IMG/VR virus record: IMGVR_UViG_3300007153_000037
Direction: 5' to 3' (one strand)
DNA from: a virus
DNA: 7,432 nucleotides
Shown here in pieces: positions 1 through 5,067 of the stretch (positions are counted from its first letter, which is position 1; each line of letters opens with the position of its first letter). Below the pieces are notes generated by a model. That model did not search any database and was not told the DNA's origin. It saw only the letters and a list, made by a program, of their open reading frames with translations. The position numbers and the translations under genes are program-made.

Positions 1-24
1 GACGGTGATTCATCTGAAGGCTGC
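1..24. repeat. Terminal redundancy (copy 1) marking circular closure
   Basis: gacggtgattcatctgaaggctgc is identical to 7409-7432. The window ends there, so the overlap is at least 24 nt. Confidence 0.95.
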
Positions 25-1152: not shown

Positions 1153-1176
1153 AAAAAAGGGGACGTTTCCGCCCCC
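1153..1176 (-). terminator. Rho-independent terminator after the major coat gene
   Basis: The minus strand reads GGGGGCG-GAAA-CGTCCCC followed by TTTTTT: a 7-bp stem including one G-T pair, a GNRA-type loop and a T6 tract. It lies 20 nt downstream of the coat gene stop, as seen after gVIII in Ff phages. Confidence 0.8.
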
Positions 1177-1195: not shown

Positions 1196-1330
1196 TTAAG
1201 CCTTTTTGACGCCGCGCTTGCCCAGGTCGATACCCTTGAACGCCATTGTGATACCGATAACGGCGACACCGACAGTACCGACCCAGGCAGCAACAGAACT
1301 GAAATCAACAGCAGCAAAAATTGCATCCAT
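1196..1330 (-). CDS. Major coat protein (gVIII-like), 44 aa
   Basis: The hand translation is MDAIFAAVDFSSVAAWVGTVGVAVIGITMAFKGIDLGKRGVKKA. It has an acidic N-terminus, a hydrophobic core and a basic C-terminus, the classic inovirus coat design (Pf3-like, with no obvious leader). GAGG lies about 9 nt upstream of the ATG, and a strong terminator follows. It is shorter than any entry in the supplied ORF track (the shortest listed is 60 aa). Confidence 0.75.
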   Translation of the reverse strand: MDAIFAAVDFSSVAAWVGTVGVAVIGITMAFKGIDLGKRGVKKA

Positions 1331-1343
1331 GTTTCTTTACCTC

Positions 1344-1478
1344 TTAGAGTTTACGAATGACGCCAATAGCGACGCCGATTTTCCAGCCGAATGCCCAGGC
1401 AGCAACAGTCAGCATGAAACTTGCGGTATATACGGAGATAACTCCCTCAACCGTTACTTGAGTTAATGTCTCGGGCAT
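1344..1478 (-). CDS. Small hydrophobic virion/membrane protein (gVII/gIX-like or second coat-like), 44 aa
   Basis: The translation is MPETLTQVTVEGVISVYTASFMLTVAAWAFGWKIGVAIGVIRKL, with one TM segment and a basic tail. Its ATG overlaps the upstream stop (TAATG), and it sits immediately upstream of the major coat gene. Confidence 0.6.
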   Translation of the reverse strand: MPETLTQVTVEGVISVYTASFMLTVAAWAFGWKIGVAIGVIRKL

Positions 1479-1615
1479 TATTCGAACATCTCCCCGAGAC
1501 AATCACCGCAATAAACTTCGCCATCAGGTACGCCCAGGGCTTCATATAAATCTGCGGAATCCTCGACCTCATCTGAATCGAAGTCATCACCGCAGCCGCA
1601 GCAGGTAGCACTCAT
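1478..1615 (-). CDS. Acidic CxxC...CxxC mini-protein (zinc-ribbon-like), 45 aa
   Basis: The translation is MSATCCGCGDDFDSDEVEDSADLYEALGVPDGEVYCGDCLGEMFE. GAGGA lies about 9 nt upstream. The ATG overlaps the upstream stop (ATGA) and the stop overlaps the next ATG (TAATG). Confidence 0.6.
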   Translation of the reverse strand: MSATCCGCGDDFDSDEVEDSADLYEALGVPDGEVYCGDCLGEMFE

Positions 1616-1773
1616 AGAGCAATATCCTCACCGGAAGAACAATTTGGGCATACAGCAAAGTACGGAGCCGAAGAATGATCATCGAGCAGATCGGGCTGGG
1701 GGGCGGGCTGATGGTGCAACTGGCCCATATCGTCGCCGCAGCAGTTGCACAGAACACGGTCGAGAATCAGCAC
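1612..1773 (-). CDS. CxxC...CxxC mini-protein (zinc-ribbon-like), 53 aa, GTG start
   Basis: The translation is (M)LILDRVLCNCCGDDMGQLHHQPAPQPDLLDDHSSAPYFAVCPNCSSGEDIAL. GAGG lies 7 nt upstream of the GTG. The stop is coupled to the next gene, and the cysteine pattern matches both neighbours. The start codon is uncertain. Confidence 0.45.
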   Translation of the reverse strand: MLILDRVLCNCCGDDMGQLHHQPAPQPDLLDDHSSAPYFAVCPNCSSGEDIAL

Positions 1774-1782
1774 AGAGAAACC

Positions 1783-1908
1783 TCAGTTAAACCACGACTC
1801 ATCGGCACAATCAGGGCACAAAAACTCACCGTTGGGGTCTTCGCTAACGTCATCAGTAGCGCCGCAAGACTCGCAAGATTCGTCAGACTCATCTAAATCA
1901 TCAGACAT
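1783..1908 (-). CDS. Acidic CxxC...CxxC mini-protein (zinc-ribbon-like), 41 aa
   Basis: The translation is MSDDLDESDESCESCGATDDVSEDPNGEFLCPDCADESWFN. GGGGAG lies about 9 nt upstream of the ATG, and the gene starts 16 nt after the preceding stop. Confidence 0.6.
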   Translation of the reverse strand: MSDDLDESDESCESCGATDDVSEDPNGEFLCPDCADESWFN

Positions 1909-1923
1909 GAAAGCGAACTCCCC

Positions 1924-2277
1924 TTAAGCCGGTTTGGATACGGGAGCGGGAGTGACGGAGGCAGACTGAGCAGTCTTTTCAGGCAGCTCAGCGAGACGAA
2001 GCGGCACGCCCTGGAGCGAATAGCGAATGCGGAATTTGCCGTTGAATTCGTCCAGCTCGTCGCTGTAGGGCGCGAAGACTTCAGAGCCGACGTGCTGGCG
2101 ATAGGCGTTATGGAGGCCGTCTTTGTACTGCTGACCAGCAACCATAAATTCAACCAGGGCGGTCTCTTCAAAGCCGTTGCGGTTCTTCGAAACGCAGTTC
2201 ATGCCGACGATGCACCAGGGCTTTTGCTCAGTGCCTTTTTGAACGATACCGACGACAAAGCCGCGAAGAATTTTCAT
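1924..2277 (-). CDS. Putative ssDNA-binding protein (gV / RstB position), 117 aa
   Basis: This is a complete ORF with GAGGTG 5 nt upstream, and its ATG overlaps the upstream stop (ATGA). The call rests mainly on its position downstream of rep and on its small size with a Pro/Ala/Ser-rich tail. I recognise no diagnostic motif by eye. Confidence 0.5.
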   Translation of the reverse strand: MKILRGFVVGIVQKGTEQKPWCIVGMNCVSKNRNGFEETALVEFMVAGQQYKDGLHNAYRQHVGSEVFAPYSDELDEFNGKFRIRYSLQGVPLRLAELPEKTAQSASVTPAPVSKPA

Positions 2278-2600
2278 GCATACACCTCATTGATTGATTG
2301 GCCGAAGCCGAAGGCATCACCAACCCAGGGTGTGCCGGTTGAAGAGAAATCGACGCGGCCAAAACGCTTGAAATCAGCGGCCAATTTCCAGTAAAGGCGG
2401 GAGTCACGGTCAGCCACTGCGTCTGGCTGCATTTGCCTATGCATGTGAGCTGGGAGCATCGGGCCGACGAACTCACGGGCGGCGAACGTCGAGCGGAGCG
2501 CTTCGAAATCGACATTGCCGTAGGAGGAAGGACGAGCAGCAATTGCGCGATGATGGTCGCGGAGAGTCGCCGCCCTGCCCTGCAATTTGACCGTGCGCAT
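2274..2600 (-). CDS. Hypothetical protein, 108 aa, translationally coupled between rep and the ssb-like gene
   Basis: Its start overlaps the rep stop (TGATG) and its stop overlaps the next start (ATGA). I recognise no motif. Confidence 0.55.
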   Translation of the reverse strand: MRTVKLQGRAATLRDHHRAIAARPSSYGNVDFEALRSTFAAREFVGPMLPAHMHRQMQPDAVADRDSRLYWKLAADFKRFGRVDFSSTGTPWVGDAFGFGQSINEVYA

Positions 2601-3721
2601 CAGGCCACCAGTCGCAGAGGCGAAGGCACTACCGCAGAGCGGTAGAACGAAGGCAGCGGCATGTCGAAACTGCGTTCGATATCGCGGACGTTTCGAATGA
2701 AGACAACACCGTGACGAGTCGCATCGAACGGCAACTTGATGTCGATACCGATTTGACGAAGACGGGCGCGGTGCTTCTGGACTGCCGATGACTCAAGATC
2801 AAAACGCTGGCCACATTGCCAAAGAGCGACATAACCGGCAGTCGTCATCGCGGCTTTACGGTGATCGACAATGCCCTTCGCCAGCAGCTCGTCGGCCACT
2901 GTCAAAACGTCGAAGTTACTGATCTCGCACTTGTCGCCCACCATGAGGAACCCCCTTTGGATTTCTCGCAATTTCTGCTCGTCGAAGAGTCCCCAAAAAC
3001 GGAGCCCTTCCCTCTTCAAATACTCCGAACGACACTTGATCTCGGAGCGAACCATGCCGACGGATGCACACCAGTCGCGCAACTCCCGCACGTAGCGGTA
3101 TTCATCAGATTCTTCGCCGAAGGTCCGCTTGACCTTGGGCAGAAGGTGGGCGCTCAGCTCAGCCGCCTTGTTGTAATTACCCGGGTAAACGAGAGAGCCA
3201 GCTTTCTCGCCACCCTTCGGGGTCCAAACGCATGTGTTGCCGTCCGGGTACAGGTAGGCAATGGAGTTGCGGAAACGCTGGCTTGAAATGCCACGCAGAA
3301 ACGCCCGTTCGTTGCCCTTCCCTACGTAAAAATTGCTGGTCAAATCGAGGCGCTGAAAAATGGCACCGTCAGCAATCAGGGTCCCGTCTTGAAGCTGCTG
3401 CGTTGTCGTGCAGCGGGTCATTTCTGGGAGGCCAAGCTCAACCAGCACAGCGTTAATCACGCGCATGCAGCCATCGAGCGAATCGATGCCGAAAACGTTA
3501 TCGAGGCGGTTCAGACGGGACGGATTGCCATCGACCGTAATGCGCCTGCCACGAACATGAATTCGGAACGTGGTGCAGTAGCTGCCTTCGGCGTAGAACG
3601 CCGGAACCGAGGTAGAAAGCAGTTCTTCGGTCTCGATGCAGGATCGACGGCAGATCACCTCACCGACCTTCGGAAGGTCAAATGGGTAGTCCTGATACGC
3701 CTTGATCCAGTCGTAGAACAT
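2600..3721 (-). CDS. Rolling-circle replication initiation protein (gpII / phage CRI-like), 373 aa from the ATG
   Basis: This is the largest ORF after zot and sits at the head of the minus-strand operon. The N-terminus is MFYDWIKAY. Motifs include VYPGNYNKAAEL, matching the YNK..EL pattern of gpII/Rep_trans-type initiators, and VRSEIKCRSEYLKREGL. AGGGA lies 5 nt upstream of the ATG at 3721. The ORF-track start at 3736 is a TTG and seems less likely. Confidence 0.85.
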   Translation of the reverse strand: MFYDWIKAYQDYPFDLPKVGEVICRRSCIETEELLSTSVPAFYAEGSYCTTFRIHVRGRRITVDGNPSRLNRLDNVFGIDSLDGCMRVINAVLVELGLPEMTRCTTTQQLQDGTLIADGAIFQRLDLTSNFYVGKGNERAFLRGISSQRFRNSIAYLYPDGNTCVWTPKGGEKAGSLVYPGNYNKAAELSAHLLPKVKRTFGEESDEYRYVRELRDWCASVGMVRSEIKCRSEYLKREGLRFWGLFDEQKLREIQRGFLMVGDKCEISNFDVLTVADELLAKGIVDHRKAAMTTAGYVALWQCGQRFDLESSAVQKHRARLRQIGIDIKLPFDATRHGVVFIRNVRDIERSFDMPLPSFYRSAVVPSPLRLVA

Positions 3722-3852
3722 GCAAATCCCTGTCAATATCGGGAAACCAATACTTTGTGGACGGGATCATAGGATTTGCAGCTGACAGAATGCAAGCAGA
3801 TTTGTATCGGAATATCGGCACTGTATGAACGATCAGTGCGTAAGGTCGGGAA
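3721..3852. promoter_or_regulatory. Divergent promoter/operator region between rep and the repressor gene
   Basis: On the minus strand, TTGCAT (3795-3790), an 18-nt spacer and TATGAT (3771-3766) form a candidate rep promoter. On the plus strand, TTGTAT (3802-3807), a 16-nt spacer and TATGAA (3824-3829) form a candidate repressor promoter. The 9-mer GGATTTGCA occurs at 3772-3780 and inverted at 3721-3729, with a partial third copy, AGATTTGTA, at 3798-3806. TTGCA-N10-TGCAA lies at 3776-3795. Confidence 0.5.
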
Positions 3853-4209
3853 ATGAACACCGACCCAGAGGGTAGAGCCGTGACAATTGCCGAAAACCTA
3901 AAACGGTGCAGGAAGGCTAAGAAGCTGACGCAGCGCCATGTCTGGGAGAAAACCGGCATAAGCAAGTCGAGCTATGTGTCATACGAAGCCGGGAAGGCAA
4001 TACCGGCAGGAGATACCGTTGTTGCGCTAGCGAAGGTCCTTGGAACCACTACTGATGAGTTGCTGCTAGATGAGCAAGAAAGGTCGGTTTCCGAAGACAT
4101 AGCACCAATACTAAAGCGCTTTGATGCACTGCCCGTTGATATCAGAAACCAAGCCAAAATAGCCCTTAAGGGCGTGCTTTTCGGATACGAGCAAGAGGCA
4201 CTGAGATAG
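3853..4209 (+). CDS. XRE/cI-family helix-turn-helix transcriptional repressor, 118 aa
   Basis: The segment IAENLKRCRKAKKLTQRHVWEKTGISKSSYVSYEAGKAIPAGDTVVALAKVLGTTTDELL is a textbook HTH_3 pattern (LTQ..ha...Gis.s.is.yE.G...P....l..la..L....deLl). It is the only plus-strand gene and diverges from rep. Confidence 0.9.
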   Translation: MNTDPEGRAVTIAENLKRCRKAKKLTQRHVWEKTGISKSSYVSYEAGKAIPAGDTVVALAKVLGTTTDELLLDEQERSVSEDIAPILKRFDALPVDIRNQAKIALKGVLFGYEQEALR

Positions 4210-4211
4210 GC

Positions 4212-4260
4212 AAAAACCCCTCGATTGCGGGGTAAAGTGGGGGTGTTACAGCACCCCCAC
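4212..4260. terminator. Tandem hairpins between convergent transcription units (candidate terminator, clearest on the minus strand)
   Basis: Hairpin 1 is 4237-4245 GTGGGGGTG, loop TTACAG, and 4252-4260 CACCCCCAC (9 bp, perfect). Hairpin 2 is 4216-4220 ACCCC, an 8-nt loop, and 4229-4233 GGGGT. Read on the minus strand, hairpin 2 is followed by TTTTT (complement of 4212-4216). On the plus strand no T tract follows, so termination of the repressor transcript is less clear. Confidence 0.6.
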
Positions 4261-4300
4261 CCATCCGAGCCGCTGAAACTGGGCGGCATCTTCCGCCGGG

Positions 4301-4446: not shown

Positions 4447-4561
4447 AATTGGTACCTGCAGGTGAGATCCTGGGCGAGATCGATCGGGCGTTTTGGTACC
4501 AATTTCTGCTGCAGCAGATCCAGGCCGGCGCCGACATGGAGGTAAACGAGGTACCAATCAG
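4447..4561. promoter_or_regulatory. GGTACC-box array A (3 boxes), downstream of the 123-aa gene
   Basis: GGTACC cores lie at 4451, 4495 and 4550, spaced 44 and 55 bp apart. The box at 4493-4502 is the perfect 10-bp palindrome TTGGTACCAA. The array shares sub-motifs with array B: GAGATCCTGGGC 13 nt after the first box, GGTACCAATTTCT..CTGCAG..CCAGG, and GGTACCAATCAG. Confidence 0.7.
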
Positions 4562-4929
4562 CCGTGGCCGGTTCGGTTGAGGCGAGCCAGGAAGTGATCC
4601 ATCGACTCACCAACTTGAGGTGAGGTCTCAGGCTCGAGATGGTGACGCAGGCGCGGCGGCGTCGTGTCCTTGGCCTGGAACATATCGCCTTGACCAGCAA
4701 CCTCGGCGAGCTGGATCGCAGCGTCACGAGCTGCTGCCAAAGTCTGCTGATACGACAGCACCTGCTGGCGAAGCTCGGCGATCTCAGCACGGGCAAGCTT
4801 CAGATCACTCTCCAGTCGTAACGACTTCTCGGCGGCGTACGCGAATGCCTTTGAGGCAACACGATAACCCGTAGAGGTCATGAGCTTTTCGGTCAGGCTG
4901 TCATCGGCTTGGAACTTCACTAGCGGCAT
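4558..4929 (-). CDS. Small coiled-coil protein, possible ribbon-helix-helix DNA-binding protein, 123 aa (paralog of 5064-5321)
   Basis: The internal ATG at 4929 has AGGA 7 nt upstream. The product starts MPLVKFQADDSLTEKLMTSTGYRVASKAFAYAAEKSL, a beta-strand, helix, G-x-x, helix pattern compatible with RHH. A heptad-like region follows (LKLARAEIAELRQQVLSYQQTLAAARDAAIQLAEVAGQ). The 30-codon upstream extension in the ORF track runs through box array B and lacks an RBS. Confidence 0.6.
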   Translation of the reverse strand: MPLVKFQADDSLTEKLMTSTGYRVASKAFAYAAEKSLRLESDLKLARAEIAELRQQVLSYQQTLAAARDAAIQLAEVAGQGDMFQAKDTTPPRLRHHLEPETSPQVGESMDHFLARLNRTGHG

Positions 4930-4940
4930 AGTCGGATCCT

Positions 4941-5067
4941 TTTGGTACCAGTTGGCGAGATCCTGGGCAAACCAGGTGCGCGAAAATGGTACCAAAGCCA
5001 TCGAGCAAACTGGTACCAATTTCTCCAGCTGCAGGAAGACCAGGTGCTACAAAAAGGTACCAATCAG
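4941..5067. promoter_or_regulatory. GGTACC-box array B (4 boxes), intergenic between the two paralogous small genes
   Basis: GGTACC cores lie at 4944, 4988, 5012 and 5056, spaced 44, 24 and 44 bp apart. The array is collinear with array A apart from a 24-bp segment carrying one extra box. Confidence 0.7.

What the first reader, a model, noticed from the sequence alone, without database searches (positions are those of the whole stretch)
1478..1908. Three consecutive, translationally coupled, acidic CxxC...CxxC mini-proteins where Ff phages carry gVII/gIX
Hand translation of the minus strand gives three back-to-back ORFs, all shorter than any entry in the ORF track (shortest listed 60 aa). They are MSDDLDESDESCESCGATDDVSEDPNGEFLCPDCADESWFN (41 aa), (M)LILDRVLCNCCGDDMGQLHHQPAPQPDLLDDHSSAPYFAVCPNCSSGEDIAL (53 aa) and MSATCCGCGDDFDSDEVEDSADLYEALGVPDGEVYCGDCLGEMFE (45 aa). 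Each has two CxxC pairs 20-30 residues apart, a zinc-ribbon-like pattern. Two of them are strongly acidic. Each has a Shine-Dalgarno-like sequence or an overlapping stop/start (ATGA, TAATG). None has a TM segment, so they do not resemble the hydrophobic gVII/gIX tip proteins. A triplicated soluble metal-binding mini-protein family in the core of an inovirus genome is unexpected. It could represent DNA mimics or anti-defence factors, regulators of host enzymes, or assembly chaperones.
Basis: partly seen in the sequence, partly recalled or inferred. Interest (0 to 1): 0.65.

Follow-up and report, generated by a model that had tools for sequence, protein, structure and literature searches.

The report
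Zinc-finger mini-genes in a filamentous phage
Three tiny back-to-back genes in a Pseudomonas-type filamentous phage are real genes for small cysteine-rich, probably zinc-binding proteins; they belong to little-known phage families of unknown function and look like optional accessory genes, not parts of the virus particle.

Summary
Three minus-strand ORFs (m1 1783-1908, m2 1612-1773, m3 1478-1615) each carry CxxC...CxxC. Each has a Shine-Dalgarno sequence or an overlapping stop/start. Shuffled sequence gives 0.17 such ORFs.

They are not one triplicated family:
- m2 belongs to PHROG 9584 (E 4e-18, function unknown). It has 73 clusters in Pseudomonas-group inoviruses and dN/dS of 0.1-0.2.
- m3 is a divergent positional counterpart of an acidic "CDECGEEF...CNSE" mini-protein family (about 20 clusters, all "hypothetical").
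- m1 is an orphan, possibly a paralog of m3.

They do not replace gVII/gIX. Small hydrophobic genes follow at 1344-1478 and 1031-1147.

The minis sit at the junction between the replication module (after the ssDNA-binding gene) and the morphogenesis module. Among relatives this slot holds zero, one, two or three such genes, or an unrelated Cys-free acidic ORF. Its content varies independently of the families of the flanking genes. In Pf4 the same slot holds PfsE.

Best reading: these are cytoplasmic, zinc-stabilised accessory proteins that bind a host target. The target and the function are inferred, not shown. Pfam, NCBIfam, PDB and Foldseek gave no significant match.

Interest is moderate.

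The parts
1783..1908 (-). m1: 41-aa acidic Cys4 mini-protein (MSDDLDESDESCESCGATDDVSEDPNGEFLCPDCADESWFN). It is an orphan and possibly a paralog of m3.
   Evidence: The ORF is. AAGGGGAG lies 9 nt upstream of the ATG. Public gene callers call it on 3 contigs. The sense frame has the best codon-usage score, 8.2 bits against 1.0 or less for the other frames. No homolog was found among 5.8 billion proteins. Local similarity to m3 is reached by 6 of 3000 shuffles. There is no similarity to the CDECG family beyond the Cys/Gly skeleton.
1612..1773 (-). m2: 53-aa Cys4 mini-protein with a GTG start, a member of PHROG 9584.
   Evidence: It matches phrog_9584 at E 3.9e-18 over 50 of 59 profile positions. 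There are 73 homolog clusters, up to 88% identical. C9, C12, G17, C42 and C45 are invariant in 73 sequences. dN/dS is 0.08-0.18 for the closest pairs. GAGG lies 7 nt upstream of the GTG. The GTG start is shared with its closest homologs.
1478..1615 (-). m3: 45-aa acidic Cys4 mini-protein, a divergent positional counterpart of the 'CDECGEEF...LCAFCNSE' family.
   Evidence: Its start overlaps the m2 stop (ATGA) and its stop overlaps the next start (TAATG). tblastn against the L004 counterpart gives 38% identity, E 5.5e-4. It is the top hit in the window for a family profile built without window sequences, but with only 9 bits. None of 3000 composition shuffles reach its score. The AF2 model has pLDDT 77: a zinc knuckle, an acidic helix, and a second CxxC at a helix N-terminus.
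1924..2277 (-). Upstream neighbour: a 117-aa gV-like protein, the presumed ssDNA-binding protein and the last gene of the replication module.
   Evidence: It matches phrog_35243 at E 3e-25. It is 71% identical to the gene at the gV position in L001 and 62% to that in L052. The function is inferred from position and size.
1344..1478 (-). Downstream neighbour: a 44-aa hydrophobic g7-like protein, the first gene of the morphogenesis module (MPETLTQVTVEGVISVYTASFMLTVAAWAFGWKIGVAIGVIRKL).
   Evidence: It is 80-86% identical in L021, L004 and L007. Its homolog is annotated 'tail virion protein gp7-like' in Pseudomonas phage 17897. Gene callers call it.
1196..1330 (-). 44-aa major coat protein without a signal peptide.
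   Evidence: It is 70-86% identical across relatives. It is annotated as major coat or CoaB in silverpheasant213 and phage 17897.
1153..1176 (-). Intrinsic-terminator-like hairpin after the coat gene (GGGGGCG-GAAA-CGTCCCC followed by TTTTTT). It marks the end of the operon segment that contains the minis.
   Evidence: Read directly. The simple scan did not list it. A function as terminator is inferred.

Best explanation
The three ORFs are genuine, co-transcribed and translationally coupled genes in the main gII-to-coat operon of a circular 7.4-kb inovirus of the Pseudomonas group. They encode small soluble Cys4 proteins, presumably binding zinc.

They come from two inovirus-restricted families, plus one orphan:
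- m2 belongs to PHROG 9584.
- m3 is a divergent counterpart of an acidic 'CDECGEEF...CNSE' family.
- m1 is an orphan that resembles m3.

They occupy a variable slot at the junction between the replication module, which ends with the ssDNA-binding gene, and the morphogenesis module, which starts with the g7-like gene.

They are accessory cytoplasmic proteins, not virion or core assembly components. The most likely mode of action is stoichiometric binding of a conserved host (Pseudomonas) protein during productive replication. The zinc knuckle would supply a rigid scaffold. In m1 and m3 an extremely acidic surface would act as a nucleic-acid-like decoy. The outcome would be host modulation of the superinfection-exclusion or anti-defence type, as for PfsE, which sits in the same slot in Pf4.

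Shown: coding status, families, conserved Cys, purifying selection, position, and turnover of the slot.
Inferred: metal binding, cytoplasmic location, a host rather than a phage partner, and the physiological outcome.
For: Real genes:
- Coordinates and junction signals.
- 3 such ORFs against 0.17 expected by chance.
- The sense frame is the best by codon usage, and antisense frames are broken in relatives.
- m2 dN/dS is 0.08-0.18 with synonymous sites near saturation.
- In the m3 family, non-synonymous changes are far fewer than synonymous ones: 7 against 20, 0 against 4, 0 against 5.
- The four Cys and the Gly are invariant.

Families:
- m2 matches phrog_9584 at E 4e-18 and has 73 clusters in Pseudomonas, Ectopseudomonas and Stutzerimonas.
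- The acidic family has about 20 clusters, all 'hypothetical'.

Position:
- The order is always ssDNA-binding gene, then [m2], then [m3], then the first small membrane gene, then the capsid gene.

Accessory, not core:
- The slot holds 0 genes in P. aeruginosa phage 17897 and L024-L036, which have the same structural module.
- It holds 1, 2 or 3 minis in other relatives.
- It holds an unrelated Cys-free acidic 60-aa ORF in L010, L012 and L014.

Independence from phage partners:
- m2 follows at least six different families of ssDNA-binding gene and precedes several unrelated downstream gene families.
- The window's m2 is 84-86% identical to copies in L044 and L045, which share neither of its modules. 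It is only 60% identical to the copies in L021, L004 and L007, which share its structural module at 80-88%.
- The same m3-type gene is joined to two different structural modules, with the breakpoint at its 3' end (L057 versus L061).

Precedent:
- PfsE (PA0721) lies between the gV gene and PA0722 in Pf4 and blocks type IV pili through PilC (PMC8764522).
- An m2 homolog sits exactly there in P. aeruginosa phage 62-2 and in a P. anguilliseptica Pf-like prophage.
Against: - No functional data exist for any family member. The literature searches and text searches within individual papers found nothing on them.
- No significant match to any characterised family or fold was found.
- The partner is unknown. 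Independence from flanking gene families is indirect evidence for a host target. It would also fit a generic nucleic-acid or metal-related role.
- Tight translational coupling to the g7-like gene, and the persistence of an acidic protein in the slot even when the Cys4 gene is replaced, could point to a morphogenetic role.
- m1 has no comparative support at all.
- AF2 confidence is moderate (pLDDT 64 and 77). Metal binding is assumed from the Cys pattern.
Confidence: 0.5

Rival explanations
1. The minis are morphogenesis cofactors. They are cytoplasmic helpers of assembly. One option is that they take the ssDNA-gV complex to the pI/Zot machine or strip gV from it. Another is that they shield the basic cytoplasmic tails of the coat and g7-like proteins. 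A third is that they act as a phage-encoded analogue of the host thioredoxin that Ff needs for assembly (the thioredoxin requirement is my own knowledge: Russel and Model).
For: - The minis lie immediately upstream of the first morphogenesis gene and are translationally coupled to it (TAATG overlap; zero to a few nt apart in relatives).
- The slot next to the g7-like gene keeps a very acidic small protein even where the Cys4 gene is replaced.
- They lie in the highly expressed operon segment that ends at the terminator after the coat gene.
Against: - Phages with the same structural module (g7-like, coat, g6, Zot) have no gene in the slot.
- The same mini types combine freely with unrelated ssDNA-binding, g7-like, capsid and Zot families. 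No co-variation with any phage partner is visible.
Confidence: 0.25
2. The minis are regulators of phage replication or gene expression. In this reading, zinc-finger proteins bind nucleic acid or the ssDNA-binding or Rep protein. They would tune the switch from RF replication to ssDNA production, or the translation of downstream genes. This applies mainly to m2.
For: - m2 is always adjacent to the ssDNA-binding gene, whatever its family. In a Stutzerimonas prophage it lies between the Rep and gV-like genes.
- m2 is not strongly acidic.
- Additional Cys4 minis occur inside replication modules of relatives: L052 4120-4305, L020 492-668, L025 and L033.
Against: - m1 and m3 have no basic residues at all, so direct nucleic-acid binding is unlikely for them.
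- m2 combines with non-homologous Rep and ssDNA-binding proteins.
- m2 is absent from close relatives such as L001, which has a 90% identical Rep.
Confidence: 0.15
3. The ORFs are not functional proteins. They are chance ORFs or mere translational-coupling spacers, or the plus-strand antisense ORFs (1675-1896, 1745-1927) are the real genes.
For: - The ORFs are very short.
- m1 and m3 have no close homolog.
- Their acidic composition inflates similarity scores.
Against: - Chance expectation is 0.17 against 3 observed.
- Purifying selection and invariant Cys are seen in the m2 and m3 families.
- Antisense frames carry stops in relatives, while the sense frame is always open.
- Shine-Dalgarno sequences and overlapping stop/start codons are present.
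- All other genes of this region lie on the minus strand.
Confidence: 0.03
4. The minis are the functional replacements of the Ff tip proteins pVII and pIX.
For: They lie after the gV-like gene and before the coat gene, where Ff has gVII and gIX.
Against: - They have no hydrophobic segment, negative GRAVY and extreme acidity.
- Hydrophobic 44-aa and 38-aa genes flank the coat gene, and the 44-aa one is annotated gp7-like in a relative.
- Relatives with the same virion genes lack the minis.
Confidence: 0.02

Closest known systems
PfsE (PA0721) of Pseudomonas phage Pf4
   Same: It is a very small protein encoded in the slot between the ssDNA-binding gene and the g7-like gene (PA0722) of a Pseudomonas inovirus, and it is expressed from the same operon. 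An m2 homolog occupies exactly that slot in P. aeruginosa phage 62-2 and in a P. anguilliseptica Pf-like prophage. PfsE acts on a host protein, PilC, to block superinfection (PMC8764522).
   Different: PfsE is a 30-aa membrane peptide with a YxWGW motif and no Cys4 pattern. The minis are soluble and acidic, carry Cys4 and show no sequence similarity to it. The resemblance is positional and conceptual only.
PHROG 9584 (phage protein family, function unknown)
   Same: m2 matches at E 3.9e-18 over 50 of 59 profile positions, and the L021 homolog matches at 1.8e-13.
   Different: The family carries no functional annotation. m1 and m3 do not match it.
Ff gVII/gIX tip proteins
   Same: The genes lie between gV and the major coat gene, are of similar length, and are translationally coupled to the upstream gene.
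   Different: pVII and pIX are hydrophobic membrane proteins. The minis are soluble, acidic and Cys4. Separate hydrophobic 44-aa and 38-aa genes are present here.
Small Cys4 zinc-finger micro-proteins (haloarchaeal HVO_2753 / 'small CPxCG-related zinc finger protein', LysW, rubredoxin)
   Same: They are similar in size (37-60 aa), have two CxxC knuckles and are often very acidic. One m2 homolog is named 'Small CPxCG-related zinc finger protein' in UniRef. Weak sub-threshold hits exist.
   Different: All scores are far below the curated cut-offs (20 bits against 80 for HVO_2753). There is no significant Foldseek match. The genomic context is different.
Acidic DNA-mimic or decoy proteins of mobile elements (Ocr, ArdA, DinI; from my own knowledge), and the Zn-ribbon Lar restriction-alleviation family
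   Same: They are small, extremely acidic proteins made by elements that pass through an ssDNA stage. Lar-like proteins are small Cys-rich phage proteins.
   Different: There is no homology. The Lar-like PHROG 6795 matches m2 only at E 0.23. Ocr, ArdA and DinI have no Cys4 site. No activity was tested.

Membership tests
PHROG 9584 (m2) | A significant match to the family profile over most of its length. | tested here: met
   E 3.9e-18, 66 bits, residues 1-50 against profile positions 1-50 of 59.
m2 family as defined here (alignment A4) | A conserved C-x2-C...MGQL...AP-x-F-x-V-C-P-x-C skeleton, and a position next to the ssDNA-binding gene of an inovirus. | tested here: met
   C9, C12, G17, C42 and C45 are invariant, and D5, R6, Q18, P37 and V41 are at least 90% conserved, in 73 sequences. 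Synteny is shown.
Acidic 'CDECGEEF...LCAFCNSE' mini-protein family (m3) | Sequence similarity to the family profile beyond composition and beyond the Cys skeleton. | tested here: inconclusive
   A profile built without window sequences gives 9.0 bits, E 0.017 among 174 window segments; this is the top hit. None of 3000 composition shuffles reach the uncorrected score. 132 of 3000 do when the Cys and Gly positions are fixed. tblastn against the L004 copy gives E 5.5e-4.
Acidic 'CDECGEEF...LCAFCNSE' mini-protein family (m3) | The same genomic position (immediately upstream of the g7-like gene), a size of 37-50 aa, four Cys plus Gly, and no basic residues. | tested here: met
Acidic 'CDECGEEF...LCAFCNSE' mini-protein family (m1) | Sequence similarity to the family profile. 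| tested here: not met
   m1 is not among the hits of the unbiased profile. With the Cys and Gly positions fixed, 2030 of 3000 shuffles score at least as well. Only local similarity to m3 was found, reached by 6 of 3000 shuffles (BLASTP E 4e-4).
Single triplicated family (m1 = m2 = m3) | Detectable homology between all three. | tested here: not met
   hhalign between the m2 and m3 families gives probability 7.6%. The m1-m2 and m2-m3 Smith-Waterman scores lie within the shuffle range.
Pfam / NCBIfam zinc-ribbon, rubredoxin, anti-TRAP and DksA/TraR families | A score at or above the curated gathering cut-off. | tested here: not met
   The best hits are zf-FPG_IleRS at 20.8 bits against a cut-off of 21.3, Anti-TRAP at 19.6 against 32, Zn_Ribbon_TF at 17 against 29, zf-dskA_traR at 13 against 25, and HVO_2753 at 20 against 80.
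Cys4 zinc-binding fold (zinc ribbon or treble clef) | Four Cys positioned to bind one metal ion; metal content. | not testable with these tools
   The AF2 model of m3 places the first CxxC in a beta-hairpin and the second at a helix N-terminus. Model coordinates and metal content were not available.
Ff pVII/pIX | A small hydrophobic membrane-inserted protein. | tested here: not met
   GRAVY is -0.90, -0.06 and -0.16, with 14-15 acidic residues in m1 and m3.
PfsE | A 30-aa transmembrane peptide with a YxWGW motif that binds PilC. | tested here: not met
   The minis have no transmembrane segment and no such motif. PilC binding was not testable.

The most novel reading that the evidence does not exclude
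The acidic Cys4 minis (m1, m3 and their family), and perhaps m2, are a new class of inovirus-encoded, zinc-scaffolded decoys. They would neutralise a host DNA- or ssDNA-binding system, such as restriction or another defence nuclease, RecA/SOS, or a pilus or uptake component. This would protect the replicating phage or exclude competitors. The hypervariable gV-g7 junction would then be an inovirus counter-defence or exclusion hotspot, of which PfsE was the first example.
Probability: 0.17. Interest if true: 0.72.

Novelty: new variant of a known kind. Interest (0 to 1): 0.45.

Why it matters
Filamentous phages shape Pseudomonas biofilms and virulence. Most of their small genes are nevertheless unannotated or missed by gene callers.

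This analysis shows that the junction between the replication and morphogenesis modules is a variable slot. In many Pseudomonas-group inoviruses it carries conserved but uncharacterised Cys4 mini-proteins. In Pf4 the same slot carries the pilus inhibitor PfsE.

If the minis are host-directed, they would be very small (37-62 aa), easily synthesised probes or inhibitors of a conserved Pseudomonas function. The slot would also be a good place to mine for further inovirus accessory functions. If instead they prove to be assembly cofactors, they would fill a gap in how non-Ff inoviruses start assembly.

Tried and rejected
- Megablast of the whole window against INPHARED gave only a 106-nt hit in the zot gene.
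- A single-sequence search with m1 returned only itself.
- The other contigs carrying m3 are 100% identical to the window, so no polymorphism data exist for m1 or m3.
- tblastn of the m3-family consensus against phages found nothing, probably because of low-complexity masking.
- Pfam, NCBIfam and PDB sequence searches gave only sub-threshold hits, or spurious repeated C2H2 matches to 'CxECGxxF'.
- Foldseek against PDB and BFVD gave no match with E below 1.
- The profile contained m1 and m3 themselves, so its E-values for them are circular. I rebuilt it without them. This downgraded m3 to 'weak' and m1 to 'not a member'.
- One triplicated family is rejected.
- Replacement of gVII/gIX is rejected.
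- An RNA element is rejected: there are no Rfam hits.
- An antisense gene is rejected.
- Roux et al. 2019 tested ten hypothetical inovirus proteins. The two with exclusion activity belong to iPF_00048 and iPF_00082. I could not link either to the minis.
The smaller alignment gave 4 loci.
Full report
**What the window is.** The first 24 bases are repeated at the end (1-24 = 7409-7432). The window is therefore a complete circular genome of about 7.4 kb. Nearly all genes lie on the minus strand, in the classical inovirus order:
- a gII-type Rep (2600-3736; Pfam G2P_X_C at 6e-14);
- a 108-aa ORF (2274-2600);
- a 117-aa gV-like gene (1924-2277);
- the three minis;
- a 44-aa hydrophobic g7-like gene (1344-1478);
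- a 44-aa coat gene without a signal peptide (1196-1330);
- a hairpin followed by a T-run (1153-1176);
- a 38-aa hydrophobic gene (1031-1147);
- a large g3-like gene that crosses the origin;
- a g6-like gene (6738-7085);
- Zot/pI (5611-6738).

An HTH repressor (3853-4209) is on the plus strand. No close relative exists among deposited phages. The nearest by Zot are Phage silverpheasant213 (65%) and Pseudomonas phage 17897 (58%).

**The observation.** The minus-strand read shows the junctions:
- AAGGGGAG lies 9 nt before the m1 ATG.
- GAGG lies 7 nt before the m2 GTG.
- The m2 stop and m3 start overlap as ATGA.
- The m3 stop and the g7-like start overlap as TAATG.

The window has three ORFs of 30-100 aa with a CxxC-x8-45-CxxC pattern, all adjacent and on one strand. 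300 dinucleotide-preserving shuffles give a mean of 0.17 and never three. m1 has 15 acidic and no basic residues, m3 has 14 and none, and m2 has 8 and one. For each mini, the sense frame has the best codon-usage score of the six frames. Public gene callers call m1 and m3.

**Relatives.** Two other contigs carrying m3 are 100% identical to the window, so they give no variation. Zot retrieved 33 IMG/VR loci. A scan of these and of later loci gave the following picture.
- An m2 homolog with an ATG start is present in L004, L007, L021 and L023.
- An acidic Cys4 mini-protein lies immediately upstream of the g7-like gene in about 20 loci. Examples are MDYECDECGESFNSEDDEAEFALIEDG..C..CNSE and MDTFVCDECGEEFDEDSDGSEFAVVDDPEGGTLCAFCNSEVTE.
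- silverpheasant213 annotates its copy as 'hypothetical protein'.
- Profile searches found about 20 clusters of the acidic family among 5.8 and 1.8 billion proteins. None carries a name or a Pfam domain.
- Profile searches found 73 clusters of the m2 family. The named ones come from Ectopseudomonas mendocina, P. chengduensis, P. anguilliseptica and other Pseudomonas. A genome scan added E. mendocina, Pseudomonas sp. P818 and Stutzerimonas stutzeri.
- m2 matches PHROG 9584, of unknown function, at E 3.9e-18.

**Coding evidence in the families.**
- In 73 m2-family sequences C9, C12, G17, C42 and C45 are invariant.
- In the acidic family the four Cys and the Gly after the first pair are invariant.
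- m2 dN/dS is 0.08-0.18 for the closest pairs. Window against L044 gives dN 0.15 and dS 0.85, so synonymous sites are near saturation while the protein is kept.
- Acidic-family pairs show far fewer non-synonymous than synonymous changes: 7 against 20, 0 against 4, 0 against 5.
- The sense frame is open in every homolog. Each antisense frame carries stops in several of them.

**Are the three one family?** No.
- hhalign between the m2 and acidic families gives 7.6% probability.
- The profile contained m1 and m3, so I rebuilt it without them. m3 is then the best segment in the window, but with only 9 bits (E 0.017 among 174 segments).
- No composition shuffle reaches the score of m3. 4% of shuffles do when the Cys and Gly positions are fixed. 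I therefore call m3 a divergent positional counterpart of the family.
- m1 is not detected by that profile. It scores no better than shuffles with fixed Cys.
- The only similarity of m1 is local, to m3 (P[ND]GE..C.DC..E). It is reached by 6 of 3000 shuffles.
- m1 is therefore an orphan and possibly a lineage-specific duplicate of m3. It rests on signals within the sequence only.

**Position and turnover.** The order is the same in every context examined: ssDNA-binding gene, then [m2], then [acidic mini], then the first small membrane gene, then the capsid gene. The flanking genes belong to different families.
- The ssDNA-binding proteins include the window type, Pfam PF02303, PF17426, PF07459 (RstB), PF17878 and the Pf4 type.
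- The downstream genes include the 44-aa g7-like type, an 89-92-aa type and the Pf PA0722 type.
- The capsids include Pf3-like, PF25631 and PF05356 types.
- One Stutzerimonas prophage has m2 between the Rep and gV-like genes.

Slot content varies among close relatives.
- It is empty in P. aeruginosa phage 17897 and in L024-L036. These share the g7-like, coat, g6 and Zot genes.
- It holds one acidic mini in many loci.
- It holds m2 plus an acidic mini in L004, L007, L021 and L042.
- It holds three minis only in the window.
- It holds an unrelated Cys-free acidic 60-aa ORF in L010, L012 and L014.

A per-gene identity table shows the mosaic.
- The window's Rep and gV resemble those of L001 (90% and 71%), which has no minis.
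- Its structural genes resemble those of L021, L004 and L007 (80-88%).
- Its m2 is only 60% identical to theirs. It is 84-86% identical to the copies in L044 and L045, which share neither module.
- m1 and m3 have no tblastn-detectable counterpart anywhere.
- L057 and L061 carry the same acidic mini joined to two different structural modules, with the breakpoint at its 3' end.

The slot is thus a recombination junction with its own evolutionary history.

**Structure and known families.**
- The AF2 model of m3 has pLDDT 77. It shows a beta-hairpin with the first CxxC, an acidic helix (residues 15-27), and the second CxxC at the N-terminus of a helix. This is a treble-clef-like arrangement.
- The AF2 model of m2 has pLDDT 64.
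- Foldseek against PDB and BFVD gave nothing with E below 1.
- Pfam, NCBIfam and PDB sequence searches gave only sub-threshold zinc-finger hits, or spurious C2H2 repeats.
- Rfam found nothing.
- No paper retrieved by the searches, and none of the papers whose text I searched, describes these proteins.

**Interpretation.** The following is shown: the minis are real small genes, from two conserved inovirus-restricted families plus one orphan. They have an invariant Cys4 pattern and are under purifying selection. They lie in the main operon at the junction between the replication and morphogenesis modules.

The following is inferred:
- They are accessory, because relatives with the same virion genes lack them.
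- Their partner is probably not a neighbouring phage protein, because the same mini types combine with non-homologous Rep, ssDNA-binding, g7-like, capsid and Zot proteins.
- All known hosts are Pseudomonas sensu lato.

This pattern fits best with binding to a conserved host component. The precedent is PfsE (PA0721). It is encoded in the same slot of Pf4 and blocks type IV pili through PilC to prevent superinfection (PMC8764522). An m2 homolog replaces PfsE at that position in P. aeruginosa phage 62-2 and in a P. anguilliseptica prophage. m1 and m3 have no basic residues. The persistence of an acidic ORF in the slot suggests that a polyanionic, nucleic-acid-like surface is what matters there.

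The main rival is an assembly-cofactor role. It is supported by the tight coupling to the g7-like gene and weakened by the dispensability of the slot. A regulatory role is conceivable, mainly for m2. None of these functions was tested.

**Verdict.** It is wrong that they replace gVII/gIX, that they form one triplicated family, and that they are unexpected for this phage group. The finding is a moderately interesting set of uncharacterised inovirus accessory mini-proteins in a variable slot.

Noticed in passing
window 4449-5066 (also 5503-5535): There is a cluster of GGTACC-core palindromes. The window has nine GGTACC sites, against 0.8 expected, seven of them within 4451-5061. It has four TGGTACCA sites, against 0.05 expected. 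They are arranged in two direct-repeat blocks of about 110 nt (4449-4560 and 4942-5066) that flank the minus-strand 153-aa ORF (4558-5019). They could be operator, iteron or recombination sites.
   Followed up: partly
window 1-24 and 7409-7432: An identical 24-nt terminal redundancy shows that the window is a circularly closed inovirus genome of about 7408 nt. The g3-like gene runs across the junction.
   Followed up: partly
window 1153-1176 (minus strand): A strong hairpin, GGGGGCG-GAAA-CGTCCCC followed by TTTTTT, lies directly after the coat gene and before the 38-aa hydrophobic ORF. This is the place where Ff has its terminator after gVIII. The consensus scan did not list it.
   Followed up: partly
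window 1344-1478 (minus strand): The 44-aa g7-like protein carries W-A-F-G-W, and its closest relatives carry W-A-M-G-W. This is reminiscent of the YxWGW motif that PfsE needs to bind PilC. It may be coincidence.
   Followed up: no
L010 about 4630-4810, L012 about 4540-4720, L014 about 3700-3890: The same slot upstream of the g7-like gene holds a Cys-free, very acidic ORF of about 60 aa (MYYVQGYDEDGALDDEECETLEDAEQILDQMVLDGATKVEVLNGYGDVIFEYDANEAEYE). It has no Pfam or PHROG match.
   Followed up: partly
L052 4120-4305; L020 492-668; L025 3773-3940; L033 2435-2602; L008 11238-11411: Further small Cys4 ORFs, unrelated in sequence to the minis, lie elsewhere in related inoviruses, mostly in or near the replication or regulation module. 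Cys4 mini-proteins seem to recur in this phage group.
   Followed up: no
window 4216-4262 versus L001 977-1023: This is the only nucleotide-level match between the window and L001 (47 nt, 94% identity), even though their Rep proteins are 90% identical. It overlaps a hairpin, GGGGGTG-TTACAG-CACCCCC, just after the HTH repressor gene. It could be a terminator or an attachment or recombination site.
   Followed up: no
L050 and L051 (Ectopseudomonas mendocina CP176620.1, about 2.42-2.44 Mb): Two m2-carrying inovirus prophage copies lie about 6.2 kb apart in the same chromosome. This suggests a tandem prophage array.
   Followed up: no
L057 3609-3634 versus L061 4240-4265: Identical acidic mini-protein genes are joined to two different downstream structural modules. 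The sequences diverge within the last codons of the mini gene (...CRFCNSEVSED versus ...CRFCNMHLADLVQAAG). This pinpoints a recombination breakpoint.
   Followed up: partly
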